This document shows positions 16,463 through 33,481 of a stretch of 53,850 nucleotides of DNA, one piece after another. The DNA comes from Bacilli bacterium. Its GTDB lineage: Bacteria; Bacillota_I; Bacilli_A; RF39; UBA660. Where the stretch lies: assembly GCA_028699175.1 (NCBI GenBank), contig JAQVVC010000001.1, forward strand, positions 1 to 53,850, read 5' to 3'. Every line of letters begins with the position of its first letter. The stretch's first letter is position 1. The notes below the pieces were generated by a model, which was not told where the DNA came from, made no database searches, and worked only from the letters and a program-made list of their open reading frames with translations. A program made the translations under genes and the position numbers.

Positions 16463-19400
16463 GACAATTAAAATATGGGATATTTTTATTAATAAGTTTA
16501 TTATTTATTACTGTAGAAGTGAATGCTAATACGGGAATATGTACAGGAAAAGACATGGATCCTTATGGCTATTGTAATATTACACCTGTTAAAATAGATG
16601 GTTCGGCAATTCCAGAACAACTAATTAAATTTACTGATGGTACATCAGCTATTATTAATAGTTATTCAGGTTTTGTAATTGATAGAAATCAAATGATGTT
16701 TTGCATCGATGCTAATCATAATGCTCCTGGAGATCAATTATATGGGCTTGCTAGGCCATTTGATGTAACAAGCTCAGCTTATGACCGCTCAATAGCTAAA
16801 GTTTATGGAGCTTATATTAATGAAGTAATATGGTTAATGAATCAAGGCAATTCTAAAGAGGCTGCTTATAATCGTTATTTACAAATGATAAATGTTGTAA
16901 TGAGAGCAATTACAATTAAATATGATTATTATATGCAAGGAGGATCCTCACAATTTTTTATTAATAATTTATTAGCATATGAAAATGTTGTTAAACAATT
17001 AGAGGGGTCAAAACCTACTGGTAAGAAATTACAAGAAGATGCTACTTATTACCCGATTCTTAAAAAATGGTATACAGAAGCAATGAGTGGTGCTCAGCCA
17101 GTTCAAATTAAACTTGATTTTAATTCAAAAAATGAAGATATTACTACTGAATATATTGGTAATAATTTTACTCAAACAATACCAGTAACAGTAAAAGGAC
17201 TAGGTGAGTTTACTAATCCTAAATATTCAGTTACCAATCCTAGTTTTAAAATTAAATCAGTAAAATGTGAAAATGAAAAATTAAATTGTAGTTTAGAAAA
17301 TACAACTCCTGTTAATACCAATTTATTATCAGGAATAACTGGGGATAAATTTGAATTTAAAGTTATTGTAAAAGGTGATAAAACCAACTTTTTAGATGAA
17401 TCTTCAACAAAAGTTATTATTGAATACGAAAAATATCATATTTTAGATATTGATAATTTAGCAGTTTTAAGATATTCAAATACCGAGCAACAAAGACAAA
17501 GAATGATAGCATTAATGCCTGATACTCCTCAAACTGCATCAGTAAAAATAAATATATCTATGCCATCTATGTGTGAAGCAGAAGTTACTGGCGGAGTTCA
17601 AAAATATTTATATGGTGGTACACCAATGAGTGAACTTAATTATTTAAAAACAGGATGCTGCAATGTTGATTATGATTACTTGAAAAATGAGGAAGCAAAA
17701 GAATATTATTTAGACAATTGCTCTACGGGAGATATAATTCATTTAGTAAATGTATGCAATAATGAAACTAATGAAATGTCTCACTCTTATGTATACCAAA
17801 AAGAAATTAATAAAATAATGGATCAGGTTAATGGAGCAGAAGATATGTATATTAAGGGTTCTTATTCTCTTGGTACATTAAAAAACACCTTAAGTAATTA
17901 TGATAACAATATCGACCGTGTCTATTCTGAAGATGGTATATCTCCAAGAAATGATTATTGTAAAATGTATACTAGCGAAAAACAAGATATCTATTATCCT
18001 GGAACGGCTGAATCAACTGGTGGACAATTTTTTGTATTTCGTGAGATAGGTACAAACAAATTTTTACAACCTAAAGTAAATGGTGAAATTTATGCTAATT
18101 TTCATACTGATGTTAATAGATGGTTAGATGATTATAAAAAAGCAATAGAAAAAGAAAAAGAAGCTTATACTAGTTGGCAAGAAGCTGCTGCTTTAGAAAA
18201 TGCAATAGGTAAATTAACTAGTTGTTATTCTTCTGGCGATTGTGGTTGTTGCAGCGATAAATGTACAGGAAGTTGTAAAACAAGATATAGCGGATCAAAT
18301 ACAGCATATGCCGATGCTGGCACTTATTTTAAAGCAGATGGCACTGATTTAAAAACTGTTAGAGCTCGACAATCATGTGGTTGTGGATCTAGTTCTAGAA
18401 CATCAAAACCATCACCTTCAGCTTCTCAAAGAAGAAACACTTATAATAAAGCTAAGGCGGATAGAATTAAATTAGAAGATTTTAAGGAAGAATGTGAAGC
18501 GAAAACCAATATTAAAGATGATTGGAAATATCAATTATCTCCTGAATTAACTTTTTATTACAAACAGAGAATAAATGCAGAAAGTGAAGATGCCCCAAAT
18601 CCCGCAGAATTACTAACTGAAAGTGTACCGATGGAAATTTCTAAAGAAAAGGTTAAATATTGGGAAGGAATAAGTCAAAATCCGATTGAAAAATCATATT
18701 TTGGAAAACCAGAAAAAATTATAATTGATGAAACATATGGAGATGCAAAAGGTGATCGAATAATCGAGTTTCCTTATGATAAAACTAAAGATTATCAAAT
18801 TGGTTATACTCAAGAATTATTTTATAAACCCTCTGTATATTATTATAGTTTAGTGCCTTCAGGTAAATATATTAAATCACAAGAGAAAAAAGAAGGGAAA
18901 AGCGTCTTAGATGTTGGATATGTATTTAATATTGACATAACAAATTATGAAGGTTTTTATGAAACATGGTTTGAAATAGAAAATATTGGTCATTTAATGA
19001 AAGATCCAGAAGATAAACCAAAATTAAAATCAAATATTCAAAAATCTGTTGATGACTACATTGACGATAATAAAGATAAATATTTAGATCATGAAGATAA
19101 AGTTAATACACAATTATTTGCAAGTAAATGCTTTTATCATAATAAAGAAGTATTATATAAAAGAGATTGTTTAGATTGTACTGATCCTAGTTTTGAAGCT
19201 CAATTCTTTTATCGTACTATTTCACTAAATAATGTTAATCCTAATGATCGTGTTAATACTAATTGGACGTCGACTAAAGGTGACCTAGCTAAAAAATCTG
19301 TTCAATCATTAGGTGATCAAATTTATAATGATAATACTAGAGAATATTTAGAATATTCATTTATATTAGACCCTAATGATATGAAAGATATAAAAGATTA

Positions 19401-19632
19401 TAATAATAAAAATAAATACAGTGATTTTCAATTAGAATGTGAAAATGGTAAAGAATGTGAAAGTGATTTTCTTACTTTGTGGGCGAAAAACTCTAATACT
19501 GAAGAATTATTAAATGATACAAGAAATAATAAATGGAAATATTTTATAAATGGAGCTTGGACTAGTGGTAATATATCTGATTTAATGGGAGGATATCCTC
19601 CAGAAACAAAAAATCTAACGGATTGGCCATAA
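16459..19632 (+). CDS. 1057-aa secreted cysteine-rich protein of unknown function
   Basis: Signal peptide MRQLKYGIFLLISLLFITVEVNA and no C-terminal anchor or LPXTG. Cys cluster SCYSSGDCGCCSDKCTGSCKTRY...SCGCGSSS. Translationally coupled on both sides. Confidence 0.7.
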   Translation: MRQLKYGIFLLISLLFITVEVNANTGICTGKDMDPYGYCNITPVKIDGSAIPEQLIKFTDGTSAIINSYSGFVIDRNQMMFCIDANHNAPGDQLYGLARPFDVTSSAYDRSIAKVYGAYINEVIWLMNQGNSKEAAYNRYLQMINVVMRAITIKYDYYMQGGSSQFFINNLLAYENVVKQLEGSKPTGKKLQEDATYYPILKKWYTEAMSGAQPVQIKLDFNSKNEDITTEYIGNNFTQTIPVTVKGLGEFTNPKYSVTNPSFKIKSVKCENEKLNCSLENTTPVNTNLLSGITGDKFEFKVIVKGDKTNFLDESSTKVIIEYEKYHILDIDNLAVLRYSNTEQQRQRMIALMPDTPQTASVKINISMPSMCEAEVTGGVQKYLYGGTPMSELNYLKTGCCNVDYDYLKNEEAKEYYLDNCSTGDIIHLVNVCNNETNEMSHSYVYQKEINKIMDQVNGAEDMYIKGSYSLGTLKNTLSNYDNNIDRVYSEDGISPRNDYCKMYTSEKQDIYYPGTAESTGGQFFVFREIGTNKFLQPKVNGEIYANFHTDVNRWLDDYKKAIEKEKEAYTSWQEAAALENAIGKLTSCYSSGDCGCCSDKCTGSCKTRYSGSNTAYADAGTYFKADGTDLKTVRARQSCGCGSSSRTSKPSPSASQRRNTYNKAKADRIKLEDFKEECEAKTNIKDDWKYQLSPELTFYYKQRINAESEDAPNPAELLTESVPMEISKEKVKYWEGISQNPIEKSYFGKPEKIIIDETYGDAKGDRIIEFPYDKTKDYQIGYTQELFYKPSVYYYSLVPSGKYIKSQEKKEGKSVLDVGYVFNIDITNYEGFYETWFEIENIGHLMKDPEDKPKLKSNIQKSVDDYIDDNKDKYLDHEDKVNTQLFASKCFYHNKEVLYKRDCLDCTDPSFEAQFFYRTISLNNVNPNDRVNTNWTSTKGDLAKKSVQSLGDQIYNDNTREYLEYSFILDPNDMKDIKDYNNKNKYSDFQLECENGKECESDFLTLWAKNSNTEELLNDTRNNKWKYFINGAWTSGNISDLMGGYPPETKNLTDWP

Positions 19633-19649
19633 GAGGATGTGAATAATAA

Positions 19650-20066
19650 ATGAAAGAAAGTTTATGGGGCTATTGGCTTGTGGTCTTAGGATTATTTATA
19701 ATATCGGTAATGATGTTGCTTCAAAATTATACAACAACAAATGAACAAGATTATTATTTATTAAAGGAAGTAACTGAAGCTTCAATGGCTGAGTCAATTG
19801 ACCTTGCTCATTATAGATTATATGGTGAAGTTAGAATTATTAAAGAAAAGTTTGTTGAAAATTTTTTAAGAAGATTTTCTGAAACAGTAAATATTAATAA
19901 AACTTATAAAATTGATTTTTATGATATTTATGAAGCGCCACCAAAGGTAAGTGTTAAAGTAACAACTAGTACTCAAGAATATGCTATAATGTCAGATACC
20001 GGTGATTTTGGGGTTGTTAATAAAATAGATTCAATTATTGAAGTATTAAATAATAAGGAGGAATAA
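19650..20066 (+). CDS. small N-terminally anchored protein (possible pseudopilin/TadE-like role)
   Basis: 138 aa with a single N-terminal hydrophobic helix (WGYWLVVLGLFIISVMMLL). No canonical prepilin cleavage motif seen. Confidence 0.5.
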   Translation: MKESLWGYWLVVLGLFIISVMMLLQNYTTTNEQDYYLLKEVTEASMAESIDLAHYRLYGEVRIIKEKFVENFLRRFSETVNINKTYKIDFYDIYEAPPKVSVKVTTSTQEYAIMSDTGDFGVVNKIDSIIEVLNNKEE

Positions 20067-20068
20067 GA

Positions 20069-20896
20069 ATGGGAAATATAGGGATATCGATAAAAAGATT
20101 TTTAGGTAATAAAAATACAGTTACAATTTTAGGTGTTATAATTGGAATATTAGTATTATATTTTGGTTATAACTGGCGAGTAAATCAAGCGATTGAACCT
20201 CTAACTGTTCCTTTTGCTAAAGAAGAAATACTTGGTAATGAACTTATTACTGATGAGAAAATCGGAACTGTTAAAGTTTCTAAAAACATGGTTGATACTA
20301 CTGATACTCTAATTACTAATCAAGCTCAAGTTAGAGGTAAATATGTTAGGTATGATACAACTATTCCTAAAGGAGGACTATTTTACAGTACCCAATTAAT
20401 GCTCGAAGAAGAATTACCTAATTCAGTTATAAAGGATATACCAGAAGGATACACTTTATATAGTTTAGCAGTTGATTTACATAGTACTTATGGTAATTCA
20501 ATAATGCCAGAAGATTATATAGATTTATATTTCAAAGCTGTAAATGATAATAAATTTGTTATGTTTGGTAAATTTATCGAAAGCATCAAGGTTTTAGCCG
20601 TAAAAGATTCGGCTGGAGAACATGTGTTTTCATCATCTTCTGATGGTGATCCTGCAGAATTATTATTTGCTGTACCTGATGATTATTACTTACTTTTAAG
20701 GAAAGCTGGTTTTATAACTACCAATAATATCGAAATAATTCCGGTACCAAGAAATAAAGATTATAGTGAAAATCCTACTGATACAGTAATTACTAGTGAA
20801 GAAATCAAAGCTTTTATTAATTCAAAAGCAGTAGATGCTAGGCAAAATGTTGGAACTAATCCAATTGATACAGAACCAATAGAAGTAGCAGAATAA
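20069..20896 (+). CDS. CpaB/RcpC-like pilus-assembly protein
   Basis: N-terminal TM and a SAF-like segment (PFAKEEILGNELITDEKIGTVKVSKNMV). Then GYTLYSLAVDLHSTYGNSIMPEDYIDLYF and IKVLAVKD follow the CpaB pattern. Confidence 0.55.
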   Translation: MGNIGISIKRFLGNKNTVTILGVIIGILVLYFGYNWRVNQAIEPLTVPFAKEEILGNELITDEKIGTVKVSKNMVDTTDTLITNQAQVRGKYVRYDTTIPKGGLFYSTQLMLEEELPNSVIKDIPEGYTLYSLAVDLHSTYGNSIMPEDYIDLYFKAVNDNKFVMFGKFIESIKVLAVKDSAGEHVFSSSSDGDPAELLFAVPDDYYLLLRKAGFITTNNIEIIPVPRNKDYSENPTDTVITSEEIKAFINSKAVDARQNVGTNPIDTEPIEVAE

Positions 20897-20924
20897 AGTT
20901 TAAGAATAAAAAGGAGGCCCAAAA

Positions 20925-22025
20925 ATGACAGATGCAATTTTTTCACAATTAGATTTTGGTCCATTAAATGAATTTATTAACGATGATAATATTACTGATG
21001 TTTCATACAGCAATGGGGGTCAAGTTTGGCTAAAAACCCTTGATAAAGGGGTATATCAGGTTCAAAGGCCAGAAATTAATAATGCTTTAATGGAAAAGCT
21101 TGCCTTTCAGTGTTCAAATGTCATGGGAAAAACATTTAATATGGCTCATCCATTTTTAGATGCTGAAAGTGCTGAACTTCGTTTGAATTTTGTTCATGAT
21201 TCAATCGCAACAAATGGAATAGCTTGTGTTATTCGTAAAACACCAGCTAAAATAAGATTAAAAAAAGAAAAATTATTAGATGAAAAATATGTTACATTGC
21301 AAGTACATGATTTTCTTATTAAATGTGTTGAAGGGCATTGTAATATTATTGTTAGTGGTGAAACTGGTTCAGGTAAAACCGAACTTGTTAAATATCTAGC
21401 AAGTCATACAAAAGAAGATGAAAAACTTATTACAATTGAAGATACATTAGAACTTCACCTTGATAGAATATTTCCTCATCGTGATATAGTGGCGATGAAA
21501 ACAAACAATATTGCTTCTTATTCTGATGTTCTTGTTACTTGTATGAGACAAAATCCAAGATGGATTTTATTATCTGAAGTACGTAGTGCAGAAGCGGTAA
21601 TGGCAGTTCGTAATTCTATTTCATCAGGTCATAATATTTTATCTACTATTCATTCAGATAAAGCTGAAAGTATTCCAATGAGAATGTATTCACTACTTGA
21701 AGGGGATCAAGATATTGAGCAATTTTTATCTTCCATTCATAGATATGTTCAACTTGGAGTATATGTAAAAGGTTATATGAGCAAAGAACGAGGTAGGTTT
21801 CATCGAGAAATAATGGAAGTTTGCGAATTTTTTGTTGATGAAAATAATGTCGCTTGTAAGAATATTATTTATAAAAAAATGATGGATGGAACCTTCTTTA
21901 TGAAAAATCCAACTAAATATTTGCTTGAGTATTTATCAATACAAGGGGTAATTCTTCCAAGTGATACATTTAAATTAGGCAGTGAAAATGACGGAAGTCA
22001 AAAAGAAGTCAAAATGACTTCATAA
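20925..22025 (+). CDS. CpaF/TadA/VirB11-family secretion ATPase
   Basis: Walker A VSGETGSGKTE, Asp box ITIEDTLEL, Walker B RQNPRWILLSEVR and His box GHNILSTIHS. Confidence 0.85.
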   Translation: MTDAIFSQLDFGPLNEFINDDNITDVSYSNGGQVWLKTLDKGVYQVQRPEINNALMEKLAFQCSNVMGKTFNMAHPFLDAESAELRLNFVHDSIATNGIACVIRKTPAKIRLKKEKLLDEKYVTLQVHDFLIKCVEGHCNIIVSGETGSGKTELVKYLASHTKEDEKLITIEDTLELHLDRIFPHRDIVAMKTNNIASYSDVLVTCMRQNPRWILLSEVRSAEAVMAVRNSISSGHNILSTIHSDKAESIPMRMYSLLEGDQDIEQFLSSIHRYVQLGVYVKGYMSKERGRFHREIMEVCEFFVDENNVACKNIIYKKMMDGTFFMKNPTKYLLEYLSIQGVILPSDTFKLGSENDGSQKEVKMTS

Positions 22026-22044
22026 TATAAAATGGAGGTGCATA

Positions 22045-22938
22045 ATGGAATTAATTGTTTTATTATTAATAGCAATATTTGTATTAACATATCGAAAAAA
22101 TACCGGCGATAATTTTTATAAATTTCTTATGAATGAATTAGGAAATATTTATGGTAAATATGCACCTTATAGCTTTCAAATGGTCCGAGAAAAAACAAAA
22201 GAATTAGGGCAAGAATATACCGTGAAAGAATATATTTCCCAAATTACGATATTCGGTTTTTTAGGAGCCGTAGTAGGATTTTTATATTTTCAAAGTATAA
22301 TATGGGCAATTTGTTATGGTTTAGTTGCAATAGCTTTTATACCCTTTTTAGCTTATTTAAGATGTCAAAGAGTATATAGTGAGTATATATTTGAACAAAT
22401 CCAAGTGTATACAACTAATGTTATTATGGAGTTTAATACAACACAAAGTTTTGTTAGAGCTTTAGAAGGTGTAGCAGAATCAGGAGTACTAGAAAGTCCA
22501 GTATTAGATGATGTTAAATTAATGATTGATTTATCTTATCAAAATGGTACGATAGATGAATCTATTCAATATTTTGATAATAAATATCCTTATTATATGG
22601 TTAAAAATATGCATCAATTATTTTTACAAATAACTAAAGAAGGAGCTAAAGATTCAGGAGAATCACTAGAAAATATGCTTCTAGATATTGATATGCTTGT
22701 TGAAGGTGTATATCGTGATAAAATGGATCGAGCAACATTTCATAAGAAATTTTTGACCTTTGGTTTTGCCTTATATTTTTTAGTTATGTTAACTCAATTT
22801 CTATTAGGTAGTGATAATTATATAAAAATGTTAGAAGAATGGTATGTTCAGTTTTTACTTCATGCTATTTTAATCATAAATACCTACTTCTTAATAAATG
22901 GCGAGAAATTTTATAATGAAGATACGGGGGCTGAATAA
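22045..22938 (+). CDS. TadB-like (T2SSF-family) inner-membrane platform protein
   Basis: N- and C-terminal TM helices flank a cytoplasmic helical domain with the T2SSF-like pattern. Directly follows the ATPase. Confidence 0.55.
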   Translation: MELIVLLLIAIFVLTYRKNTGDNFYKFLMNELGNIYGKYAPYSFQMVREKTKELGQEYTVKEYISQITIFGFLGAVVGFLYFQSIIWAICYGLVAIAFIPFLAYLRCQRVYSEYIFEQIQVYTTNVIMEFNTTQSFVRALEGVAESGVLESPVLDDVKLMIDLSYQNGTIDESIQYFDNKYPYYMVKNMHQLFLQITKEGAKDSGESLENMLLDIDMLVEGVYRDKMDRATFHKKFLTFGFALYFLVMLTQFLLGSDNYIKMLEEWYVQFLLHAILIINTYFLINGEKFYNEDTGAE

Positions 22939-22940
22939 CG

Positions 22941-23729
22941 ATGTTAATAGAAGTCTTATTATTAGGAGTCCTTTTATATATTATCTTAGAATATAATGGC
23001 AGTATTAGTACTAATAAATTTATTATTGATAACAGTAATATATTTATAAAATTAAAAGAAAAAGATTATGATTTTTATGTTAAAGCAAAATATGGAGATT
23101 CAATTGATGTTGAAAAATTATTTAATATTAGATTGCGAAATGGTTTGTTTGTGATACTAATAATGCTCTTTCTTTTTATAACTAATATAAATTTTGCCAA
23201 TATTTTATTTTGTATAATAGCGGGTTATGGAGTATATAAATTATCTTATTTGTCACTTAAAAAATATTATAAAACTCATTTACATACAATAGATTTAATG
23301 CTTCCTTATTATTTAAAAAATTTAGAAATATTAGTTCAACATTATACTGTTCCAGTTGCATTAGGTAAATCAGTAGAAGATGCTCCTAAAATTTTTAGAG
23401 AAGGCTTAAAAACTTTAATTGAAAAAATTAATGCCGGTGATAGTACTATTAATCCTTATATGGATTTTGCTAAAGATTATCCTGTAAGGGATTCAATGAG
23501 AATGATGAGGTTATTATACCGTTTAAGTCTAGGTAGTAATGAAAGAAAACAAGAGCAATTATTAACTTTTTCTCGTAATATATCGAATTTACAACAAAAA
23601 GCTAGAGAATCAAGATATAAAGAAAGATTAGAAAAGATGGAAAGTAAAACAATGGTTATGTTAGTAACTACAGGGGTAGGAGTAATGGTATTGTTAATTA
23701 TTTCAATTTTGATGATGTTTACATCTTAA
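22941..23729 (+). CDS. TadC-like (T2SSF-family) inner-membrane platform protein
   Basis: Same architecture as the previous gene (LPYYLKNLEILVQHYTVPVALGKSVEDAP..., C-terminal TM). Confidence 0.5.
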   Translation: MLIEVLLLGVLLYIILEYNGSISTNKFIIDNSNIFIKLKEKDYDFYVKAKYGDSIDVEKLFNIRLRNGLFVILIMLFLFITNINFANILFCIIAGYGVYKLSYLSLKKYYKTHLHTIDLMLPYYLKNLEILVQHYTVPVALGKSVEDAPKIFREGLKTLIEKINAGDSTINPYMDFAKDYPVRDSMRMMRLLYRLSLGSNERKQEQLLTFSRNISNLQQKARESRYKERLEKMESKTMVMLVTTGVGVMVLLIISILMMFTS

Positions 23730-23753
23730 TATAAAGCAAAAAAATATAAAAAT

Positions 23754-23775
23754 TGACAAATTTGTCATTTTTTTT
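23754..23775 (+). terminator. perfect 14-bp palindrome plus T-run after the Tad-like operon (terminator or operator)
   Basis: tgacaaatttgtca (23754-23767) followed by T8. The stem would be short, so an operator role is equally possible. Confidence 0.35.
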
Positions 23776-23820: not shown

Positions 23821-24214
23821 GCTTAAGGTAAATTAGAACAATCAATTAATGACTTGCATAATTTTTCCAAAAGAAAAGTTATGCATAAAAATTATTAGAA
23901 ATAATAATTTTATAAATTTATTTATTAAATTTAACAAAATAATTTTTACTAAAATTAAAATTATTAAAAATTTAATAAATGATAATTAATTTTGTTTTAA
24001 TTAAAGTAATGAAGTTTTACGAAAGTAAAATCTTATCTACGGTAAGCGGGACAATTGTTTTCGGAGAGTGTGTTACTCCAAATGATAGGTAGTTACCGGG
24101 TTGTACTGATAATACTCCGCAATCATATATATTATATTTTTAATTAAATATAATGTGTATTGTGACTATTCATCAAACCAGACTAGATAATTTATCAGAT
24201 TATCTAGTTTTTTT
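23821..24214 (+). ncRNA. unassigned non-coding transcript with structured GC-richer core and intrinsic terminator
   Basis: No SD-preceded ORF. GNRA hairpin gttttac-GAAA-gtaaaat (24014-24031). Helix cggtaa (24040-45) / ttaccg (24093-98) encloses ggag/ctcc pairings. Strong terminator ctagataa...ttatctag plus T7 (24181-24214). Confidence 0.45.
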
Positions 24215-24215: not shown

Positions 24216-24244
24216 TTGCATTAAGTGTTTTGATTTGTTATAAT
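24216..24244 (+). promoter_or_regulatory. sigma-A type promoter of the 4-gene McrB-like cassette
   Basis: TTGCAT (24216-24221), 17-nt spacer, TATAAT (24239-24244), immediately after the upstream terminator. Confidence 0.55.
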
Positions 24245-24272
24245 TTATTATAGAATAGAGGTTTATTAAGGG

Positions 24273-25400
24273 ATGAATGATTGGATTAGTGTGTATAAAA
24301 AAAATAAAAAAACAAATCTTTATCAATATATGTATTTAATATCCAACATATTGTCCATTGATAATAAAAAAATCTTAGGTAGTAAAAAAAGAACCTCTGA
24401 AATTTTAGAAAAAATATGTGAAATATATATCGACGAGATTTATTTAAATAATAATAAGAAAATTAATTTAAGTAACATGTTTATAGAAAATAAATATATT
24501 GATGATTATAAATTACATAAAGAAATATATTCGGTGATCAAATTTTTTATAAAAAATAATATTGTTCTTGATATTAAAAATAATGAAAAAGATATTATCT
24601 TAATTGCAGTATTTATTAAATTAGCTATCGAATTGGACAGTTTAACAAATCCATTTACAAATGAAAAAATAAATATATATAATTTAGCTACTGAATATAT
24701 AAATTTATATCACAAAATAGATTTTATTTATTTGATAGATCAAGGTAAGAAGAATACTAAGTTATTAATTGATGCAATTAAAATAAACTTTGTAAAAGAA
24801 AAAAAGTTTTTTAGTATTTTAACAAGTGATAACTCATTTAATAAATATATTAGAATAAATGAAAATGTTCCCTATTATATTACTCAATATAATTACTATA
24901 TTAAAAGTTTAGAAAATTATAATCCAAAACCGATAAAAAATGTTTATGAAACATCAAAAATAGATGAGCAATTCACTTTTATAAGTATTGAATTAGCAGT
25001 TATTACTTTAGTAAAAGAAATCGCAGTTCAAAAAGATTTAAGCACTTTCTTAATTCCTGTTAAATTAGATTTTTTTGAAAAAGACAAAAATATAAAGGAT
25101 TTAAAATCAATATTTGAATTAAAAATAATCAATAAAAAAATAAAAATACTTATAAATTATGATGATATAAATAATAATTTACTTAATATATTAAAAAGAA
25201 ATAAAATAGATTATTATATATATTGTAATAAAAATGCAACTATAACCAATTTTGAAGAGAATGAAAAATATGTTTTTAGTAAAGAATTTATTAAAAAATA
25301 TCAACTTGAAGCAAGAAATAACGTTATACTAGAAACAATAAATGTATATATGAAAGATAATGATATATTATTTTTGAAAGGTAAGGAGAATAAAATATGA
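24273..25400 (+). CDS. hypothetical cytoplasmic protein (cassette gene 1)
   Basis: 375 aa, very Lys/Asn/Ile-rich, with no TM and no motif recognised. Stop overlaps the next start (ATGA). Confidence 0.6.
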   Translation: MNDWISVYKKNKKTNLYQYMYLISNILSIDNKKILGSKKRTSEILEKICEIYIDEIYLNNNKKINLSNMFIENKYIDDYKLHKEIYSVIKFFIKNNIVLDIKNNEKDIILIAVFIKLAIELDSLTNPFTNEKINIYNLATEYINLYHKIDFIYLIDQGKKNTKLLIDAIKINFVKEKKFFSILTSDNSFNKYIRINENVPYYITQYNYYIKSLENYNPKPIKNVYETSKIDEQFTFISIELAVITLVKEIAVQKDLSTFLIPVKLDFFEKDKNIKDLKSIFELKIINKKIKILINYDDINNNLLNILKRNKIDYYIYCNKNATITNFEENEKYVFSKEFIKKYQLEARNNVILETINVYMKDNDILFLKGKENKI

Positions 25401-26905
25401 ATGTATATGGGGAATTTTTCCTAAAGTTTATGGAGCCCTTTTTTGGAGGTATAATAAGTTTATTTACTGAACTAGGTAAGTCACTTTTTAGAATATTTAA
25501 TATCCTTACTTATATTGATATTATTAAAGAATATATAACTGAATTAAGTGGCATAGGAATAGTTATGGTAGTTATAGCTACACTTTGCTTATTATTATTG
25601 TTTGGTTTATTCTTCTTCTTTGTTTATAAATTAATAAGTAATTTTGTAAAATATCGTCAAAGAATGAAACATCAAGAATCATTAGTTGAAGAAATAGATA
25701 ATTTAAATAATGAAGTTATAAAACTTAAAAGTGAAAATGAAAAATTTCTTAATATGACTGATCCTAATTCTGGTGAAATTGAGTATGATGAAGAGGGAAA
25801 TGTAATTAATAAATTATCAGAAGGTGAGAGCAGATTCTTTAAATTAACTCAAGTAGATAATATGATGGAAACTTATGAAGCAAAAATATATGCAGAAATT
25901 ACATCTTTAGAAAGTTTATGTCAAGATTTTTTAAATTATTCAGCTTCTAAATTAGGATTATATTATGATATTTCTTTAATAAGATTATTTGTAGCTGCAT
26001 TTGCTTCAAATAGATTGATAATATTGCAAGGTATATCAGGTACTGGTAAAACATCACTTGCATATGCTTGGGGAAACTTTGTCAATAATAATACTGTAAT
26101 AGCACCTGTTCAACCTTCTTGGCGAGATAGTTCAGAGTTATTTGGATATTTTAATGAATTTACGAAAAGGTTTAATGAAACTGAAGTATTAACTAAGATG
26201 TATGAAGCTAAATATCTAGATAATGTATATACAATATTGTTAGATGAAATGAATATATCACGTGTTGAATATTATTTTGCTGAAATGCTTTCGATATTGG
26301 AACTTCCATCGGCAGATGAATGGGTTATTGATTTAGTTCCGAATACATGGGCTAATGATCCGAAATTACTTGAAAATGGACGTTTAAAAATCCCATTTAA
26401 TATGTGGTATGTAGGGACAATAAATAATGATGATTCTACATTTATGATAACTGATAAAGTATATGATCGTGCTATGCCAATAAATATTGATACAAAAATA
26501 CCTCCATTTGAAGCTCCCGATACTGAAGCAATTAATTTATCAAGCAAGAACTTCATTGATTTATTTAATAAATCAAAAGATGAACATCCAGTTAGTGAAG
26601 AAACATTAAATAAAGTGGCTGAAATGGATGATTATGTTATAACTCATTTCCGGATTGCATTTGGTAATCGTATTGTCAAACAACTAAGAGATTTTATTCC
26701 TGCTTATGTTGCTTGTGGTGGTGATGAAATGGTGGCAGTTGATTACATAATTGCTCATAAGATATTGAGAAAGTTTGATCAATTAAATTTATCATATATA
26801 AGAAATGAAATAGATGGATTTATTACCTTTTTAAATCAAACATTTGGACAAGATGTAATGAAAGAGTGTATTATTTATTTAGAAAGACTTAAAAAAACAA
26901 TATAG
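25397..26905 (+). CDS. membrane-anchored, coiled-coil McrB-like AAA+ (AAA_5 / COG1401-type) NTPase (cassette gene 2)
   Basis: TM helix GIGIVMVVIATLCLLLLFGLFFFFVY and coiled coil ESLVEEIDNLNNEVIKLKSENEKF. Walker A ILQGISGTGKTSLA, then VQPSWRDSSELFGYFN. Walker B ILLDEMNISRVEYYFAEMLSILE and VGTINNDDSTFMITDKVYDRA. The last three are McrB-family hallmarks. Confidence 0.75.
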   Translation: MNVYGEFFLKFMEPFFGGIISLFTELGKSLFRIFNILTYIDIIKEYITELSGIGIVMVVIATLCLLLLFGLFFFFVYKLISNFVKYRQRMKHQESLVEEIDNLNNEVIKLKSENEKFLNMTDPNSGEIEYDEEGNVINKLSEGESRFFKLTQVDNMMETYEAKIYAEITSLESLCQDFLNYSASKLGLYYDISLIRLFVAAFASNRLIILQGISGTGKTSLAYAWGNFVNNNTVIAPVQPSWRDSSELFGYFNEFTKRFNETEVLTKMYEAKYLDNVYTILLDEMNISRVEYYFAEMLSILELPSADEWVIDLVPNTWANDPKLLENGRLKIPFNMWYVGTINNDDSTFMITDKVYDRAMPINIDTKIPPFEAPDTEAINLSSKNFIDLFNKSKDEHPVSEETLNKVAEMDDYVITHFRIAFGNRIVKQLRDFIPAYVACGGDEMVAVDYIIAHKILRKFDQLNLSYIRNEIDGFITFLNQTFGQDVMKECIIYLERLKKTI

Positions 26906-26920
26906 TAAAGGAGTAATGTT

Positions 26921-28021
26921 ATGACTGAAGGATTATTAGATTTAGTTAATAATGTCCCAACTGATGATTTAGATTTGTTTTCATCCAAAACAAAATCAAT
27001 ATTAACTGCAAAAAAATATGTTGAAAAAGTATCAGTAGATTTTTCATGGGTAGATGAGATTTATGAATCAATTCCTTATATCGACAATATAATTCGTAAT
27101 CCAAGGCGTTTTATTACTCAAGAAGAAGACGTAATTAGAATTGAAAAAGTTAAAAAAGTTAGTGAAGAATCAATAAAGCACCTAGCTCAACATACTTCTT
27201 TAATTCAAAAAGTTGATCAAGATGGAACGGTAAAACCGCTTAAATTATTAAATGTATTTAAAGAAGAAACAATTGATTTATATGAAAATAGATTTATTTA
27301 TTCATTAGTAAATAATTTAAATGTATTTATTCAAGGTCAGTTAATATATAAAGATGAAGAATCATTTAATAAAGAAGTTAAAACAGTTAATTATGAAGCT
27401 CAAACAAAATTTGAAAAAGAAGATATTACAATTAAACTTTTAATAAGATCAGCTAATTATGAAAACTTAACTATATCTAATGAAAAAGCCAAAGATTTAA
27501 AAGAAAAATTGAATTACATTGCTGATATTTTAGATGATTTTATGAGTAGTGTTTTTATGAAAACTATGAGAAATGCTACGCCAGTTAGATCACCAATTAG
27601 AAAAACAAATATAATACTTAAAGATGTTAATTTTATTTATGCTTTAAAATTATGGGAATTTTTAGAAGGCTTTCAAGTTGAAACACCTCTTAAAAAATAT
27701 AAAGAGACGATTGATTTAGCTAATAACAAACTCGATAGTAATTATGCTTTAACTTATTATTTAAATTATTATTTTTTAAATGATAGAGATCGTAATGAAA
27801 CTGATGAAACTAGTAAACATGCTGGTTTAAAAAAAATAATATTTGACACTGCTAAAGATTTTGATAATGATGAAATTGAATTAAGAAAATTATTAAATAA
27901 TGAATTAAAATTAGCGGCAAAGTATAAACAAGATCAAATAAAGGGAATTAGTATTTCATTTAAAGATTTTATTGATAATCATCGTAACAAAATGAAAGAA
28001 GCATTATTCATTTTAAAATAA
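26921..28021 (+). CDS. hypothetical protein in the McrC position, no PD-(D/E)xK motif visible (cassette gene 3)
   Basis: 366 aa with SD AAGGAG upstream. DLYENRFIYSLVNNL weakly recalls DUF2357/McrC-associated regions (from memory). I found no D...ExK nuclease signature. Confidence 0.55.
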   Translation: MTEGLLDLVNNVPTDDLDLFSSKTKSILTAKKYVEKVSVDFSWVDEIYESIPYIDNIIRNPRRFITQEEDVIRIEKVKKVSEESIKHLAQHTSLIQKVDQDGTVKPLKLLNVFKEETIDLYENRFIYSLVNNLNVFIQGQLIYKDEESFNKEVKTVNYEAQTKFEKEDITIKLLIRSANYENLTISNEKAKDLKEKLNYIADILDDFMSSVFMKTMRNATPVRSPIRKTNIILKDVNFIYALKLWEFLEGFQVETPLKKYKETIDLANNKLDSNYALTYYLNYYFLNDRDRNETDETSKHAGLKKIIFDTAKDFDNDEIELRKLLNNELKLAAKYKQDQIKGISISFKDFIDNHRNKMKEALFILK

Positions 28022-28048
28022 TTTTAAATTAATGGAAGGGAGAAAAAA

Positions 28049-29338
28049 ATGGCTAATAAAAATAAAAAAGAATCTAAGATTAACCCAATATTGGGCCGAG
28101 CTGGACAATCTATTGATTTAGTAAAATTTAATATTAAAAAGGAACAAGATCAGTTTACTGAAATCGAAAAAATATTAAAAGAAATATATCAAAATGATCT
28201 AAAAATTAATAGAAAACATATTTTAAAGTGTTTGAAATTAACCTGGTCAGTTAATGATGATTTTATATTTCTTCCTTTTAATTTAAAAGTTTCAAAAGAA
28301 AAATTCACTTTAAAATTTGATGTTCAACCTAAAAAAGGTATTGGTTTTGGTTGGGTAATATTCGCAATTTGGTTATTTTTATTTGCCTTTATTGGTGCTA
28401 CCTATGCTGGTTTTACATATCTAAGTATTGCAAATTTAAATAAAGATATTGATGGAGATGGAATAGCAGATATTAATATTGATATTAATAATGATAAATT
28501 AGCTGAAATAAATGTTGATATAAATAATGATGATATACCAGATTTAAATATAGATTATAAAGGAAATCGGAGAGCGGTATTTAATATTGATACGGATAAT
28601 GACCAAAAACCCAATTATAATATAGTAAATGATGCAACAGGTGGTAAAGCATGTTTAATTAATTGTGATTTAGATGGAGATGGATGGCCTGATATAAATT
28701 TAGATTTAGATGGTGATGGTATAATAGACATAGATATCGACACTGATAATGATAAAGTACCAGACTTAAATTTAGATGTAAATGGTGATGGTCTTTGTGA
28801 CATAATGTGTGATACAAACGGGGATAAAGTTTGCGATATTAAATGTATAAAAGTTGTAGAACAAAATGAAGATGTAAAAACCGGATCATCTACCCAAACA
28901 GGTGAAGCAAATGTCGAAACTTCTACACCATATTTATTAATAAATTATAATGATGGTATAACAGTAAATGTCAGAGGTCTGTTACCTGATGATCAACCTG
29001 AAATTGCTGGACTTCCAGTTGTAAAACCAGTTAAAGAATTTACTGTTGAGAATTTATCTGATTACCCTATATATTATGGTATAAGATGGAATGTAAGTAC
29101 CAATACCTTTGTATCAGATAATTTAAAATATACTATTCAAGGTACAAATGGGGCTCCCAATTTGGAACCTACACCTATGCCGGTAACATCAAGATCAATA
29201 TATGAGCGAGTATTAATTATGCCTAGAGTAACTCAAAAATTTAGGATTCAAATAAATCTTCATGGTACTGGATTACCTCAAAATGAAGATCAAGGGAGAG
29301 AATTTATAGGTCAAATTGAAATTAATTTAAATAATTAA
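28049..29338 (+). CDS. single-pass membrane protein with extracellular Asp-rich calcium-binding-type repeats and a C-terminal beta-rich domain (cassette gene 4)
   Basis: About 95-aa cytoplasmic head and TM GFGWVIFAIWLFLFAFIGATYAGFTYL. Repeats DGDGIADINIDINNDK / DLDGDGWPDINLDLDGDGIIDIDIDTDNDKVPDLNLDVNGDGLCD (DxDxDG, thrombospondin-type-3-like), then a roughly 140-aa C-terminal domain. Confidence 0.65.
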   Translation: MANKNKKESKINPILGRAGQSIDLVKFNIKKEQDQFTEIEKILKEIYQNDLKINRKHILKCLKLTWSVNDDFIFLPFNLKVSKEKFTLKFDVQPKKGIGFGWVIFAIWLFLFAFIGATYAGFTYLSIANLNKDIDGDGIADINIDINNDKLAEINVDINNDDIPDLNIDYKGNRRAVFNIDTDNDQKPNYNIVNDATGGKACLINCDLDGDGWPDINLDLDGDGIIDIDIDTDNDKVPDLNLDVNGDGLCDIMCDTNGDKVCDIKCIKVVEQNEDVKTGSSTQTGEANVETSTPYLLINYNDGITVNVRGLLPDDQPEIAGLPVVKPVKEFTVENLSDYPIYYGIRWNVSTNTFVSDNLKYTIQGTNGAPNLEPTPMPVTSRSIYERVLIMPRVTQKFRIQINLHGTGLPQNEDQGREFIGQIEINLNN

Positions 29339-29362
29339 ACACTATCAATTAGTGTTTTTTAT
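29338..29362 (+). terminator. intrinsic terminator ending the cassette
   Basis: aacacta-tcaat-tagtgtt followed by a T-run. Confidence 0.7.
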
Positions 29363-29424
29363 TTTACCTATGAGGATTTTTTTCTAATTTAACTTATTTT
29401 TGCATATAATTGATTGGTGATAAA

Positions 29425-32398: not shown

Positions 32399-33481
32399 AT
32401 GAATAAGAATATTGGTATTATAATACCTGTAGTAATATTAACTTTATTTGGTTTACTAATGGTATATTCATCAAGTAATATTTGGAGTGAATATAAATAT
32501 AATGATTCTTTTCATTATTTAAGACATCAAAGTATTTTTGTTGTTGTGGGTTTTATAATCATGTATATATTATCTAAAATTGATTATAAAATATATTATA
32601 AAAAAGCAAATTGGATTTTACTAATTTGCTTTTTATTATTAGGGCTTGTCCTTATACCAGGTATTGGTATCATAAGAAATGGATCAAGAAGTTGGTTTGG
32701 TATAGGTGCTTTTGGAATTCAACCTAGTGAGTTTGCTAAGATATGTTTAATTATCTTTATGGCTAAGTATTTAAGTAATAATGTTAAAGATATGAGTAAT
32801 TTTAAAAAAGGTGCCTTACCTATTTTAATAGTGATATTTATCTTTTTTGCTCTTATTATGTTAGAGCCAGACTTTGGAACTGGCATGGTTATAGTAATAA
32901 GCTTAATAGGAATGTTATTTATATCAAATATTAAACTAAACTTTTTTGCATATGCAGGCGTTGCTGGTTTAGTTGGTATGATAGGTTTAATAATAGCTGC
33001 TCCGTATCGAGTAGCAAGAATAGTTTCTTATTTGAATCCTTGGAGTGATCCTTTAGGATCAGGATTTCAAATTATTCAAAGTTTATATGCAATTGGACCT
33101 GGTGGTTTATTTGGCTTAGGACTAGGTAATTCTATTCAAAAACATTTTTATTTACCTGAACCACAAACAGATTTTATTTTTGCTATAATTTGCGAAGAAT
33201 TTGGTTTTTTAGGAATTATAATCTTAGCTAGTCTATATTTATATTTATTTTATAAAGTATTAAAAGTAAGTATTAATATTAATGATTTATTTGGTAAATA
33301 TTTAGCTTTTGGACTTATTTTTGGGATAATTTTTCAAACAGCGTTAAATATTTGTGTTGTAATTGGTTTACTTCCTGTAACGGGAGTAACTCTACCATTT
33401 TTTAGTTATGGGGGCTCTTCATTATTAGTATCTTTAGCAAGTATTGGAATTATTTTAAATATTGGTAAAAATGTGAAATAA
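32399..33481 (+). CDS. SEDS protein FtsW/SpoVE
   Basis: IQPSEFAKI, PEPQTDFIFA and LPFFSYGGSS, positioned after mraY. Confidence 0.9.
   Translation: MNKNIGIIIPVVILTLFGLLMVYSSSNIWSEYKYNDSFHYLRHQSIFVVVGFIIMYILSKIDYKIYYKKANWILLICFLLLGLVLIPGIGIIRNGSRSWFGIGAFGIQPSEFAKICLIIFMAKYLSNNVKDMSNFKKGALPILIVIFIFFALIMLEPDFGTGMVIVISLIGMLFISNIKLNFFAYAGVAGLVGMIGLIIAAPYRVARIVSYLNPWSDPLGSGFQIIQSLYAIGPGGLFGLGLGNSIQKHFYLPEPQTDFIFAIICEEFGFLGIIILASLYLYLFYKVLKVSININDLFGKYLAFGLIFGIIFQTALNICVVIGLLPVTGVTLPFFSYGGSSLLVSLASIGIILNIGKNVK

What the first reader, a model, noticed from the sequence alone, without database searches (positions are those of the whole stretch)
24216..29362. Self-contained 4-gene cassette built on a membrane-anchored McrB-like AAA+ protein with no visible nuclease: candidate novel envelope-associated system
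The cassette has its own promoter (24216-24244), four coupled genes (ATGA overlap at 25397-25400, then gaps of 15 and 27 nt) and its own terminator (29338-29362). Gene 2 carries the McrB/COG1401 hallmarks: GISGTGKT, VQPSWRDSSELFGYFN, LLDEMNISRVEYYFAEMLS and GTINNDDST...DRA. Its N-terminus is a TM helix plus a coiled coil rather than a DNA-binding domain. Gene 3 sits where McrC normally is, but I find no PD-(D/E)xK motif. Gene 4 is a single-pass membrane protein that displays Asp-rich Ca-binding-type repeats outside the cell. Gene 1 has no recognisable domain. By eye the cassette is even more AT-rich and Lys/Asn-rich than its neighbours, and it sits between two unrelated loci, which suggests horizontal acquisition. 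Coiled-coil McrB relatives exist in known type IV restriction-like systems. The membrane anchoring, extracellular repeat protein and missing nuclease together do not fit any system I know. Possible roles are phage sensing or abortive infection at the envelope, or a surface-remodelling machine.
Basis: partly seen in the sequence, partly recalled or inferred. Interest (0 to 1): 0.72.

Follow-up and report, generated by a model that had tools for sequence, protein, structure and literature searches.

The report
Membrane-anchored, nuclease-free McrBC-like (CoCoPALM) cassette
Four co-transcribed genes in an uncultured gut-type Bacilli genome encode a membrane-tethered relative of the McrBC restriction motor that has lost its nuclease and DNA-binding parts and is paired with a calcium-repeat surface protein; it is a reduced variant of a class named "CoCoPALM" in 2024 whose function nobody has tested.

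Summary
The sequence features are real: four coupled ORFs, a phylogenetically conserved TTGCAT-17-TATAAT promoter, and a weak terminator. Gene 2 has a TM helix, a short coiled coil and a McrB-type AAA+ core. Gene 3 is DUF2357 (McrC N-domain) with no nuclease by motif, model or fold search. Gene 4 is single-pass with eight DxDxDG-type repeats and a jelly-roll domain. The claims of unusual AT-richness and horizontal acquisition are not supported.

The system is not unknown. Bell et al. (eLife 2024) named this clade CoCoPALM: NxD-type McrB GTPase fused to an FtsB-like TM and coiled coil, plus a McrC homologue, linked to signal-peptidase/pilus genes. It got one paragraph and no experiments.

Full-length gene-2 relatives occur in at least 584 species. 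In 49 of 52 loci of the other type, genes 2-3 sit among SipW signal peptidases and proteins with SipW-type "ATYAWF" signals. The window's G1-G2-G3-G4 type (30 loci) has SipW nearby in only 3. Gene 4, whose anchor ends in "ATYAGF", takes the place of those proteins.

Best reading: a GTP-driven switch on the inner membrane face that controls a surface protein or fibre, not DNA restriction. Defence and cell-division roles remain possible. This is a new variant of a known but uncharacterised kind.

The parts
24005..24120 (+). Conserved structured RNA upstream of the cassette, resembling the PGK motif. Whether it belongs to the cassette is uncertain.
   Evidence: Rfam RF03040 at 41.9 bits, below the gathering score of 50.8, E 8.5e-4, full-length match. 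The same element lies upstream of gene 1 in L001, L010, L011 and L029, and upstream of a longer operon in L018. 5 of 20 predicted pairs show compensatory changes.
24180..24214 (+). Hairpin plus T7 run that ends the upstream RNA.
   Evidence: -14.4 kcal/mol. Stem covaries and loop TTATCAG is invariant across six loci. The loop is complementary to the invariant CTGATAA in the RNA's 3' hairpin (read from the sequence).
24216..24244 (+). Sigma-A-type promoter: TTGCAT, 17-nt spacer, TATAAT, with TG at the extended -10 position.
   Evidence: Conserved as TTGCA(T/A)-17-TATAAT in five diverged loci. Its distance from the upstream terminator varies, but its distance from the gene-1 start is fixed.
24257..24262 (+). 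Shine-Dalgarno sequence (AGAGGT) of gene 1.
   Evidence: The block AATAGAGGT(A/T) is conserved before the aligned start codons.
24273..25400 (+). G1: cytoplasmic, fast-evolving accessory protein (375 aa). Its C-terminal half may be beta/alpha.
   Evidence: No family hit. No invariant column among 26 homologues. The profile hits only a designed TIM barrel (E 5.4e-8). A weak colinear hhalign match to local EAL proteins was found (E 0.018, probability 2.6%). G1 lies immediately upstream of G2 in most Bacilli-type loci (58 ORFs matched the G1 profile). It is fused behind a SipW peptidase in L088.
25397..26905 (+). G2: membrane-anchored McrB-like GTPase of the NxD type (502 aa).
   Evidence: Profile against PDB hits McrB only (E 1.1e-6). 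PADLOC PDC-M26A at 4e-39 over the AAA core. Full-length relatives at 50-68% identity occur in at least 584 species genomes.
25550..25648 (+). G2 transmembrane helix (residues about 52-84). Predicted orientation is N-out, C-in.
   Evidence: Kyte-Doolittle mean 3.05. Hydrophobic in all homologues. KYRQRMKHQ follows it; orientation is an inference from the positive-inside rule.
25664..25756 (+). G2 short cytoplasmic coiled coil (residues about 90-120).
   Evidence: 3-4 spacing of L96, I100, L103, V107, L110 and F117, read from the sequence. Weak hits to DivIC (E 0.084), FtsL (0.074) and geminin coiled coils (0.36).
26030..26053 (+). Walker A motif, GISGTGKT.
   Evidence: Invariant in alignment A1. 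G(L/I/M)SGTGK(S/T) in 150 representatives.
26237..26254 (+). Walker B motif, LLDEMN.
   Evidence: Invariant D283, E284, M285 and N286. Aligns to DEIN of E. coli McrB.
26423..26434 (+). McrB signature motif, here N-N-D-D (NxD followed by D).
   Evidence: Across 150 representatives at 50% identity the conserved pattern is N-x-D-(D/E), with position 344 variable. This matches the NxD clade described in PMC11090510.
26921..28021 (+). G3: McrC N-terminal-domain (DUF2357) protein without a nuclease, with a helical tail (366 aa).
   Evidence: Pfam DUF2357 E 1.3e-8, residues 54-140. All 1312 relatives found are about 360-370 aa and DUF2357-only in the listed set. AF2 pLDDT 75, residues 187-366 mostly helical, last helix 318-365. 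Foldseek against PDB gave nothing below E 0.008 and no nuclease. The profile against PDB sequences gave nothing.
28049..29338 (+). G4: bitopic surface protein (429 aa). It has a cytoplasmic N-domain, a signal-anchor, Asp-rich repeats and a jelly-roll.
   Evidence: AF2 pLDDT 83. 686 relatives, none with a Pfam domain. Follows G3 in 30 non-redundant loci.
28340..28432 (+). G4 transmembrane helix (residues about 98-128).
   Evidence: Kyte-Doolittle mean 2.34. AF2 helix at 100-128. Lys-rich before and acidic after, giving an N-in, C-out orientation by inference.
28397..28414 (+). ATYAGF motif at the outer end of the G4 anchor. It resembles the SipW-dependent signal motif.
   Evidence: A117 and Y119 are nearly invariant. 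The motif resembles ATYAWF of the SipW-linked f3 proteins and GATYAYF of large proteins next to G4 in relatives. hhalign of this segment gives E 0.002, probability 14%.
28445..28837 (+). Eight 12-residue D-x-D/N-x-D/N-G/D/K-x-x-D/E repeats of calcium-binding type. Predicted to be extracellular.
   Evidence: Repeat starts at residues 133, 145, 157, 207, 219, 231, 243 and 255; 24% Asp. Modelled at pLDDT of about 90. Calcium binding is inferred from motif type only.
28931..29326 (+). G4 C-terminal jelly-roll / beta-sandwich domain.
   Evidence: Foldseek against PDB finds CBM61, PA14, CBM6 and others, plus the TasA fibre 8aur (E 4e-4 to 3e-3, probability 0.98-1.0). The viral library gives generic tail-fibre and CBM-like folds. 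A weak match in the same register to the last strands of the SipW-linked f4 family was found (E 0.0098).
29337..29363 (+). Terminator-like AT-rich hairpin with a T-run.
   Evidence: -8.0 kcal/mol. It fails the scan's requirement for at least 3 G-C pairs, so it is plausible but weak.

Best explanation
This is a reduced four-gene variant of the CoCoPALM class, a derivative of McrBC that has lost DNA binding and the nuclease and works at the membrane.

SHOWN.
- G2 has a McrB-type AAA+ core with the NxD(D/E) signature, behind one TM helix and a short coiled coil.
- G3 is a McrC N-terminal (DUF2357) domain with a helical tail and no nuclease.
- G4 is a single-pass protein with a SipW-signal-like anchor, Asp-rich repeats and a jelly-roll.
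- G2 and G3 are always adjacent. In other lineages they sit among SipW peptidases and SipW-substrate-like proteins.

INFERRED.
- G2 forms a hexameric ring on the cytoplasmic face. GTP is cytoplasmic and the positive-inside rule places the C-terminus inside. Its conserved first 50 or so residues would face outward.
- G3 inserts into the ring and stimulates GTP hydrolysis, as McrC does for McrB.
- The G2-G3 GTP switch acts on the cytoplasmic N-domain or signal-anchor of G4. In other genomes it would act on the TasA-like subunits and their membrane-bound f4 partner. It would control release, SipW-type processing at ATYA|GF, or assembly and anchoring of a calcium-stabilised surface adhesin or fibre.
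- G1 is a cytoplasmic adaptor or regulator that works next to the peptidase.

Transcription is from a vegetative sigma-A-type promoter.
For: - McrB relationship and NxD motif.
- TM helix and coiled coil in G2.
- DUF2357 with no nuclease in G3.
- G2-G3 adjacent in 76 of 82 loci; G1-G2-G3-G4 order in 30 non-redundant loci.
- SipW identified next to G2 (NF046067 E 3.8e-27; TIGR02228 71.9 bits, above its cutoff of 51.85).
- SipW present in 49 of 52 non-G4 loci.
- The neighbouring f3 proteins carry K/R-hydrophobic-(S/T)YAWF N-termini; 4 of 20 match the SipW-cognate signal model TIGR04088.
- f3 and f4 share a C-terminal motif (hhalign probability 98.6%).
- G4 anchor motif ATYAGF and jelly-roll with TasA among the fold matches.
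- SipW-G1 fusion in L088, with G1 placed after the peptidase's second TM helix.
- Class description in PMC11090510.
- Strong conservation of G2 (same length, 50-68% identity across Bacilli and Clostridia).
- Precedent for McrB-family proteins recruited to non-restriction roles (PcdA, PMC10602043).
Against: - No experiment exists for any member of the class.
- No SipW gene lies within 25 kb on either side in the window, and only 3 of 30 G4-type loci have one within 10 kb. G4 processing by SipW is therefore conjecture.
- The sequence links are statistically weak: G4 to f3/f4 (E 0.002 and 0.0098, probabilities 14% and 4%) and G1 to EAL (probability 2.6%).
- The G3 model did not retrieve McrC by Foldseek. 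The McrC link rests on the Pfam profile alone.
- The FtsB homology claimed for the class is not reproduced here beyond E of about 0.03-0.08. The predicted topology puts the coiled coil inside the cell, which is opposite to FtsB.
- I could not check the window protein against the authors' CoCoPALM list.
Confidence: 0.55

Rival explanations
1. Envelope-level anti-phage defence or abortive infection. G4 would sense or act as a decoy for phage adsorption outside the cell. The G2-G3 GTPase would transmit the signal and kill or arrest the cell, for example through its membrane segment.
For: The ancestry is from a defence system, McrBC. The nearest annotated relative of the AAA core is a PADLOC candidate-defence model (PDC-M26A, 4e-39). 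Soluble NxD relatives occur on plasmids in CoCoNuT-like contexts. The flanks of the cassette differ between lineages. G1 evolves fast.
Against: No effector domain is recognisable. G1, G3 and G4 have no PADLOC hit. There is no full-length copy on plasmids or phages. G2 is unusually conserved and of uniform length. Composition is native. The cassette has a stable position in the dcw region in a dozen species and is consistently embedded in SipW surface-protein clusters elsewhere. No defence genes were seen in the flanks that were annotated.
Confidence: 0.2
2. A cell-division or cell-wall accessory module. A McrB-family NTPase would be recruited to the divisome or to peptidoglycan synthesis, as PcdA is in Staphylococcus aureus. 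The FtsB/FtsL-like TM and coiled coil would serve as the targeting device.
For: The cassette lies directly upstream of PBP-MraY-FtsW in the window and in relatives. It lies between mraW-(99 aa)-PBP and PBP-mraY-ftsW in L016, L025, L027, L028 and L030. Weak DivIC and FtsL hits were found in the G2 N-terminus. PcdA provides a precedent.
Against: The dcw linkage is confined to one related group, about 12 of 30 G4-type loci, so it may be inherited synteny. Clostridial and other Bacilli homologues are not near dcw genes but sit in SipW clusters. The coiled coil is predicted to be cytoplasmic, unlike FtsB and FtsL. The cassette has its own promoter and terminator.
Confidence: 0.12
3. An ordinary type IV (McrBC) restriction enzyme whose nuclease or DNA-binding domain was simply not recognised.
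For: McrB-type AAA core with an adjacent DUF2357 gene.
Against: No DNA-binding domain is present. The N-terminus is a conserved TM helix plus coiled coil. G3 has no conserved acidic/lysine triad, a helical C-terminus and no nuclease fold match. No other nuclease is encoded in the operon.
Confidence: 0.02

Closest known systems
[quoted passage not shown]
   Same: NxD-type McrB-like GTPase fused N-terminally to a TM helix plus coiled coil. An adjacent McrC (DUF2357) homologue without an evident nuclease. Full-length orthologues of G2 at 50-55% identity sit next to SipW-family signal peptidases and have coiled-coil-extended McrC partners.
   Different: In the window and 27 of 30 loci of its type no signal peptidase lies nearby. 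G3 has only one long terminal helix instead of a long coiled coil. Two components not mentioned in the paper are fixed parts of the unit: G1, and the calcium-repeat protein G4. The class itself is described in one paragraph and is untested.
E. coli McrBC (type IV restriction; PDB 6hz4, 6ut6)
   Same: The AAA+ core aligns over about 200 residues, including Walker A, Walker B (DEMN against DEIN) and the Asn/Asp signature loop. The partner carries the McrC N-terminal domain. It probably works as a ring plus an activator finger.
   Different: No DNA-binding N-domain and no PD-(D/E)xK nuclease. NxD rather than NxxD. Membrane-anchored.
CoCoNuT systems (CnuB/CnuC; same paper)
   Same: Same NxD branch of McrB GTPases. 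Coiled coils are present and McrC homologues often lack an active nuclease. Soluble 600-870 aa relatives of G2 with a C-terminal AAA domain are abundant.
   Different: CoCoNuTs are soluble, have long coiled coils, and are always associated with HEPN or other nucleases and RNA-binding domains. None of these is present here.
SipW-TapA-TasA (Bacillus subtilis) and SipW-BsaA/B/C (Clostridium perfringens, PMC11580942) fibre operons
   Same: In related loci the G2-G3 pair is embedded among archaeal-type signal peptidase I (SipW) genes and several secreted proteins with SipW-type signals. G4 carries a similar motif and a jelly-roll that matches the TasA fibre among others. BsaA oligomers are reported to be membrane-anchored (section heading).
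   Different: The known TasA and BsaA operons have no McrBC-like NTPase. The window has no SipW. A TasA-like fold for the f3/f4 proteins was not tested.
PcdA of Staphylococcus aureus (PMC10602043)
   Same: A McrB-family AAA+ NTPase recruited from restriction to an envelope-related cellular role.
   Different: PcdA is soluble, has EVE domains, binds FtsZ and DivIVA, and has no McrC-like partner. No specific sequence relationship was tested.
PADLOC candidate system PDC-M26 (component A)
   Same: Best PADLOC hit of G2 (E 4e-39), covering the AAA core.
   Different: The model is 724 positions long and matches only G2 residues 155-303 plus a second stretch. G1, G3 and G4 match nothing in PADLOC. 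It is a candidate system, not a validated one.

Membership tests
CoCoPALM (Bell et al. 2024) | McrB-like GTPase of the NxD signature clade | tested here: met
   The conserved pattern across 150 representatives is GT(A/I)N-x-D-(D/E)-ST, with position 344 variable. This matches 'NxD usually followed by E or a second D'. In the window the motif reads NNDD, so NxxD is also formally readable. No phylogeny against the authors' tree was possible.
CoCoPALM (Bell et al. 2024) | GTPase fused to an FtsB-homologous TM plus coiled-coil domain | tested here: inconclusive
   The TM-plus-coiled-coil architecture is present and conserved. Sequence similarity to DivIC, FtsL and FtsB is only marginal (E 0.028-0.084). 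No FtsB structure was hit by the profile. The predicted topology is opposite to FtsB.
CoCoPALM (Bell et al. 2024) | Adjacent McrC homologue (DUF2357) | tested here: met
   G3 matches Pfam DUF2357 at 34.8 bits, above the cutoff of 23.3. It is adjacent in 76 of 82 loci.
CoCoPALM (Bell et al. 2024) | Association with signal-peptidase-family genes | tested here: not met
   No SipW-like ORF was found in the 53.8-kb window. The only peptidase hit is LspA. SipW occurs in 3 of 30 G4-type loci against 49 of 52 other loci. The feature is met for the family but not for this locus. The rest of the genome was not available.
CoCoPALM (Bell et al. 2024) | [quoted passage not shown] | tested here: inconclusive
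   G2 has about 30 residues of heptad pattern. G3 has only one long terminal helix, 318-365. Clostridial G3 proteins of 600-890 aa have long coiled coils.
McrBC type IV restriction | McrC with a PD-(D/E)xK nuclease domain | tested here: not met
   No conserved motif, a helical C-terminal half and no nuclease fold match.
McrBC type IV restriction | N-terminal DNA-binding specificity domain on McrB | tested here: not met
   Residues 1-190 consist of a conserved short N-segment, a TM helix, a coiled coil and a linker. No DNA-binding family was hit.
McrBC type IV restriction | McrB-type AAA+ GTPase core | tested here: met
   The profile hits 6hz4, 6ut6 and 7vsr (E 1-3e-6) over Walker A through the signature loop. 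GTP specificity itself cannot be tested here.
CoCoNuT | Tandem or associated nucleases (HEPN and others) and long coiled coils | tested here: not met
   No nuclease or HEPN hit was found in any of the four proteins.
   Only McrB chains were found among PDB AAA+ proteins at E up to 10. Pfam AAA_5 is the shared superfamily model and the match is weak.
SipW-dependent (TasA/BsaA-like) secreted proteins, as a classification for G4 | SipW-cognate signal peptide and a cognate SipW gene | tested here: inconclusive
   The ATYAGF motif lies at the outer end of the anchor. It resembles ATYAWF and GATYAYF of neighbours in related loci, with hhalign E 0.002. G4 has a 95-residue cytoplasmic extension that is atypical for a signal peptide. 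No SipW lies nearby.
Validated anti-phage defence systems (PADLOC) | All components match a known system | tested here: not met
   Only G2 matches, and only a candidate model (PDC-M26A). G1, G3 and G4 have no hits.

The most novel reading that the evidence does not exclude
The G2-G3 pair is a GTP-powered motor or checkpoint derived from McrBC. It would drive or gate assembly, anchoring or release of SipW-dependent (TasA-like) surface fibres and adhesins from the cytoplasmic side. That would be a previously unrecognised, NTP-dependent pilus or fibre biogenesis mechanism in Gram-positive bacteria. The window's cassette would be its minimal form: one motor, one activator, one adaptor and one calcium-binding adhesin as client.
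Probability: 0.3. Interest if true: 0.8.

Novelty: new variant of a known kind. Interest (0 to 1): 0.45.

Why it matters
TasA-type fibres are thought to assemble outside the cell without an energy source. A conserved GTPase module wired into such clusters in hundreds of gut Firmicute species would change that picture. It would also give another example of a restriction motor recruited for a cellular job. The four-gene form found here is the smallest version of the system. It therefore suggests which parts are essential, and it is a convenient unit for reconstitution. If the system instead turns out to be a defence system, it would be one without a recognisable effector. At present it is a named but untested class, so the value lies in the hypotheses and the defined parts list, not in a demonstrated function.

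Tried and rejected
- Single-sequence searches of G2 and G3 against PDB sequences gave nothing useful. The G3 and G1 family profiles likewise gave no informative structure.
- Foldseek of the G3 model found no McrC and no nuclease. This may partly reflect the extended, non-globular model (pTM 0.47).
- Foldseek of G4 against the viral library gave only generic jelly-rolls.
- PHROGs gave nothing relevant.
- Rfam at gathering thresholds gave nothing in the window, and no tRNA was found.
- The terminator scan found none, because it demands G-C-rich stems.
- An apparent relationship between G1 and SipW, seen in my iterated HMM, was rejected. It came from the L088 fusion protein. G1 itself does not match the SipW profile.
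- The idea that window ORF 10186-10659 is a SipW was rejected. It is LspA.
- The idea that the Tad-like operon upstream belongs to the system was not supported. It is adjacent only in the window and in L029.
- The idea that the hairpin at 24180-24214 is an attenuator directly controlling the cassette was weakened. A conserved promoter lies between it and gene 1.
- The supplementary files of the CoCoNuT paper held as text contain no CoCoPALM entries. No follow-up paper was found.
As a result G1 and the f3/f4 proteins could not be modelled.

Full report
**What is in the sequence.**
- The window is a 25% GC contig. Identical proteins in public data are labelled 'MAG: Bacilli bacterium'.
- Four same-strand ORFs occupy 24273-29338, with a 4-nt ATGA overlap and gaps of 15 and 27 nt.
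- Upstream lies a Tad-like pilus operon, with a T2SSE ATPase at 20925-22025.
- Downstream lie a PASTA-containing PBP, MraY, FtsW, a Mur ligase and FtsK.
- Cassette GC is 0.242 against 0.252 for the window. The sd for same-length windows is 0.015, and 22.5% of such windows are as low or lower. GC3 is ordinary. Only gene 1 is extreme, at 17.5% GC and 27% Lys+Asn. The compositional argument for horizontal transfer therefore fails.

**Promoter and terminator.**
- A consensus scan is uninformative in this AT-rich DNA: 56 promoter-like sites against 55.1 expected, and no terminator because G-C-rich stems are required.
In the window, L001, L010, L011 and L029, a TTGCA(T/A)-17-TATAAT element with TG upstream of the -10, followed by AATAGAGGT, sits at a fixed distance from the aligned gene-1 start. 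Its distance from the preceding hairpin varies from 0 to about 60 nt.
- The hairpin after gene 4 (29337-29357, -8.0 kcal/mol, then a T-run) is a plausible weak terminator.

**Gene 2.**
- Residues 52-84 are the most hydrophobic stretch in the cassette (Kyte-Doolittle mean 3.05). The stretch is hydrophobic in all homologues.
- It is followed by KYRQRMKHQ and a heptad-patterned segment.
- A single-sequence search of PDB finds nothing. A profile of 18 homologues hits only E. coli McrB (6hz4, 6ut6, 7vsr; E 1-3e-6). The alignment runs from before Walker A through Walker B (DEMN against DEIN) to the signature loop.
- Across the 150 best representatives of a 1.84-billion-protein library, the signature is GT(A/I)N-x-D-(D/E)-ST with the second position free. 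That is the 'NxD' variant.
- The library holds 720 clusters at 50% identity with E up to 1e-30. Of the top 150, 81 carry one, two or four TM helices before Walker A. Others are soluble proteins of 600-870 aa.
- PADLOC's candidate model PDC-M26A matches the AAA core (4e-39). Nothing else in the cassette matches PADLOC.

**Gene 3.**
- Pfam DUF2357, the McrC N-terminal domain, matches residues 54-140 above threshold.
- In alignments of 28 and 40 homologues the conserved blocks are RNPRRF, HLAQHT, P-K-LN..KEE..DLYENRF and PVRSPIRKTN.ILK. No invariant residue lies beyond position 249.
- The AlphaFold model (pLDDT 75) shows long beta-hairpins in the first half and helices from 187 onwards, ending in a 48-residue helix.
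- Foldseek against PDB returns nothing below E 0.008 and no nuclease. The 'no nuclease' observation stands.
- The structural link to McrC could not be confirmed independently of Pfam.

**Gene 4.**
- The model (pLDDT 83) has four parts: a small cytoplasmic alpha/beta domain (20-92), a helix at 100-128, a confidently modelled irregular repeat region, a disordered linker, and a beta-sandwich at 295-426.
- Eight 12-residue repeats of the DxDxDGxxD type lie at 133-263.
- The beta-sandwich matches carbohydrate-binding modules, PA14 and the TasA fibre, among others (E of about 1e-3).
- The flanking charges indicate an N-in, C-out orientation. This is an inference.
- The outer end of the anchor reads GATYAGF, with A117 and Y119 nearly invariant.

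**Gene 1.**
- It has no family hit and no invariant column.
- Its profile hits only a designed TIM barrel.
- It aligns weakly but colinearly with EAL proteins from related loci (E 0.018, probability 2.6%). I treat this only as a lead.

**Relatives and context.**
They come from uncultured Bacilli ('Tenericutes'-labelled MAGs) and Clostridia (Ruminococcus, Oscillospiraceae and others). Identity is 50-68% over the full length.
- In 82 non-identical loci, G2 and G3 are adjacent in 76.
- Two architectures appear.
  - In 30 Bacilli loci the order is G1-G2-G3-G4, as in the window.
  - In 52 other loci G2-G3 lie inside larger same-strand clusters.
- Those larger clusters contain the following:
  - One or two archaeal-type signal peptidases I of the SipW kind (NF046067 E 3.8e-27; TIGR02228 above cutoff).
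  - Several paralogous proteins (f3, 245-1460 aa) whose N-termini are K/R-rich, then hydrophobic, then (S/T)YAWF. Four of 20 match the SipW-cognate signal model, and one carries a CBM26 starch-binding module.
  - A membrane protein family (f4) that shares the f3 C-terminal motif (hhalign probability 98.6%).
  - Often an EAL-domain protein.
  - In Clostridia, G3 is 600-890 aa long with a coiled-coil extension.
- SipW lies within 10 kb in 49 of 52 of these loci, but in only 3 of 30 G4-type loci. None is in the window.
- Several G4-type loci have large proteins with a GATYAYF signal right after G4.
- In L088 a complete G1 is fused behind a SipW peptidase, after its second TM helix. This places G1 in the cytoplasm next to the peptidase.
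- In the window's own lineage the cassette keeps a position in the dcw region, next to PBP-MraY-FtsW. In five species it lies between mraW-(99 aa)-PBP and PBP-mraY-ftsW.
- No full-length G2 relative is present in the plasmid or phage collections.

**Literature.**
[quoted passage not shown] Analysis was deferred to a later paper.
- I found no later paper. The supplements held as text contain no CoCoPALM entries.
- The Clostridial relatives found here fit that description feature by feature, and the window's G2 is their full-length orthologue. I therefore file the cassette in this class.
- It is a variant, however. The local signal-peptidase association is not met. The McrC coiled coil is reduced to one helix. 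G1 and G4 are fixed components that the paper does not mention.
- FtsB homology is not reproducible here beyond marginal scores. The predicted topology puts the coiled coil in the cytoplasm, unlike FtsB.

**Mechanism.**
- Shown: the domain make-up, the invariable G2-G3 pairing, the loss of nuclease and DNA-binding parts, the membrane anchor, and the linkage to SipW-type surface-protein genes.
- Inferred from McrBC structures (PMC6624300 and PMC7680126; abstracts): a G2 ring whose GTPase is switched on by the G3 finger.
- Further inferred: the ring sits under the membrane and acts on the cytoplasmic N-domain or signal-anchor of G4, or of f4/f3 proteins elsewhere. It would control processing, release or anchoring of a calcium-stabilised adhesin or fibre, with G1 as adaptor.
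- I give this reading 0.55 overall. Class assignment is about 0.8. The surface-protein function is about 0.45-0.5.
- Rivals: envelope defence (0.2), a division or cell-wall role suggested by the dcw synteny and the PcdA precedent (0.12), and ordinary restriction (0.02).

**Verdict.**
- Novelty: a new variant of a known, uncharacterised kind.
- Interest is moderate.

Noticed in passing
window 24005-24214 (+): A conserved structured RNA of about 115 nt gives a full-length but sub-threshold match to the Rfam PGK motif (41.9 bits against 50.8). It is followed by a strong hairpin and T7 run. The same unit precedes the cassette promoter in L001, L010, L011 and L029, and precedes a 369-aa/703-aa/G1 operon in L018. 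The invariant terminator loop TTATCAG is complementary to the invariant CTGATAA in the RNA's last hairpin, which suggests alternative pairing. It could be an independent small RNA or a regulator. Ligand and role are unknown.
   Followed up: partly
window 15731-23729 (+), with a hairpin and T-run at about 23748-23775: A Tad-like pilus operon lies directly upstream. It includes a 1057-aa protein, DUF5411, an RcpC-like protein, a T2SSE ATPase and two polytopic membrane proteins. It is adjacent to the cassette only here and in L029, so it is probably not part of the system.
   Followed up: partly
window 9077-9868 (+): A SigF/SigG-family sporulation sigma factor is present (best match is to a SigG model, but below its curated cutoff). 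This suggests that this small-genome Bacilli lineage may sporulate.
   Followed up: no
L088:7821-10001: A single 726-aa ORF fuses a SipW-type signal peptidase (residues 5-195, two TM helices), an acidic linker and a complete G1 homologue (364-703). It is a Rosetta-stone link between G1 and the peptidase, unless it is an assembly artefact.
   Followed up: partly
L052:17228-18742 and neighbouring genes: In a Ruminococcus MAG, one of the SipW-substrate-like proteins after G3 carries a CBM26 starch-binding module. This hints that these clusters build substrate-binding surface fibres.
   Followed up: no
L074:5460-6215, L082:5381-6136 and others: EAL-domain (c-di-GMP phosphodiesterase-type) proteins head many Clostridial clusters. 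G1 occupies the equivalent upstream position in Bacilli and aligns weakly with their barrel.
   Followed up: partly
L074:13787-20962, and the same position in L077 and L082: A giant protein of about 2390 aa directly follows the long G3 in Ruminococcus sp. CAG:488-type loci. It was not characterised.
   Followed up: no
protein P0027 (646 aa): One G2 homologue contains an internal duplication of about 145 residues covering the signature loop and the C-terminal helices. It may be a real duplication or an assembly error.
   Followed up: no
L016, L025, L027, L028, L030 (upstream of G1): In these loci the cassette lies between mraW (confirmed as RsmH) / a 99-aa gene / a PBP, and a second PBP / mraY / ftsW. 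It is therefore inserted within the dcw region in this lineage.
   Followed up: partly
window 13480-14535 and 32399-33481: Two FtsW/RodA/SpoVE-family paralogues lie on either side of the Tad-cassette block. A rhomboid protease is at 12020-13141.
   Followed up: no
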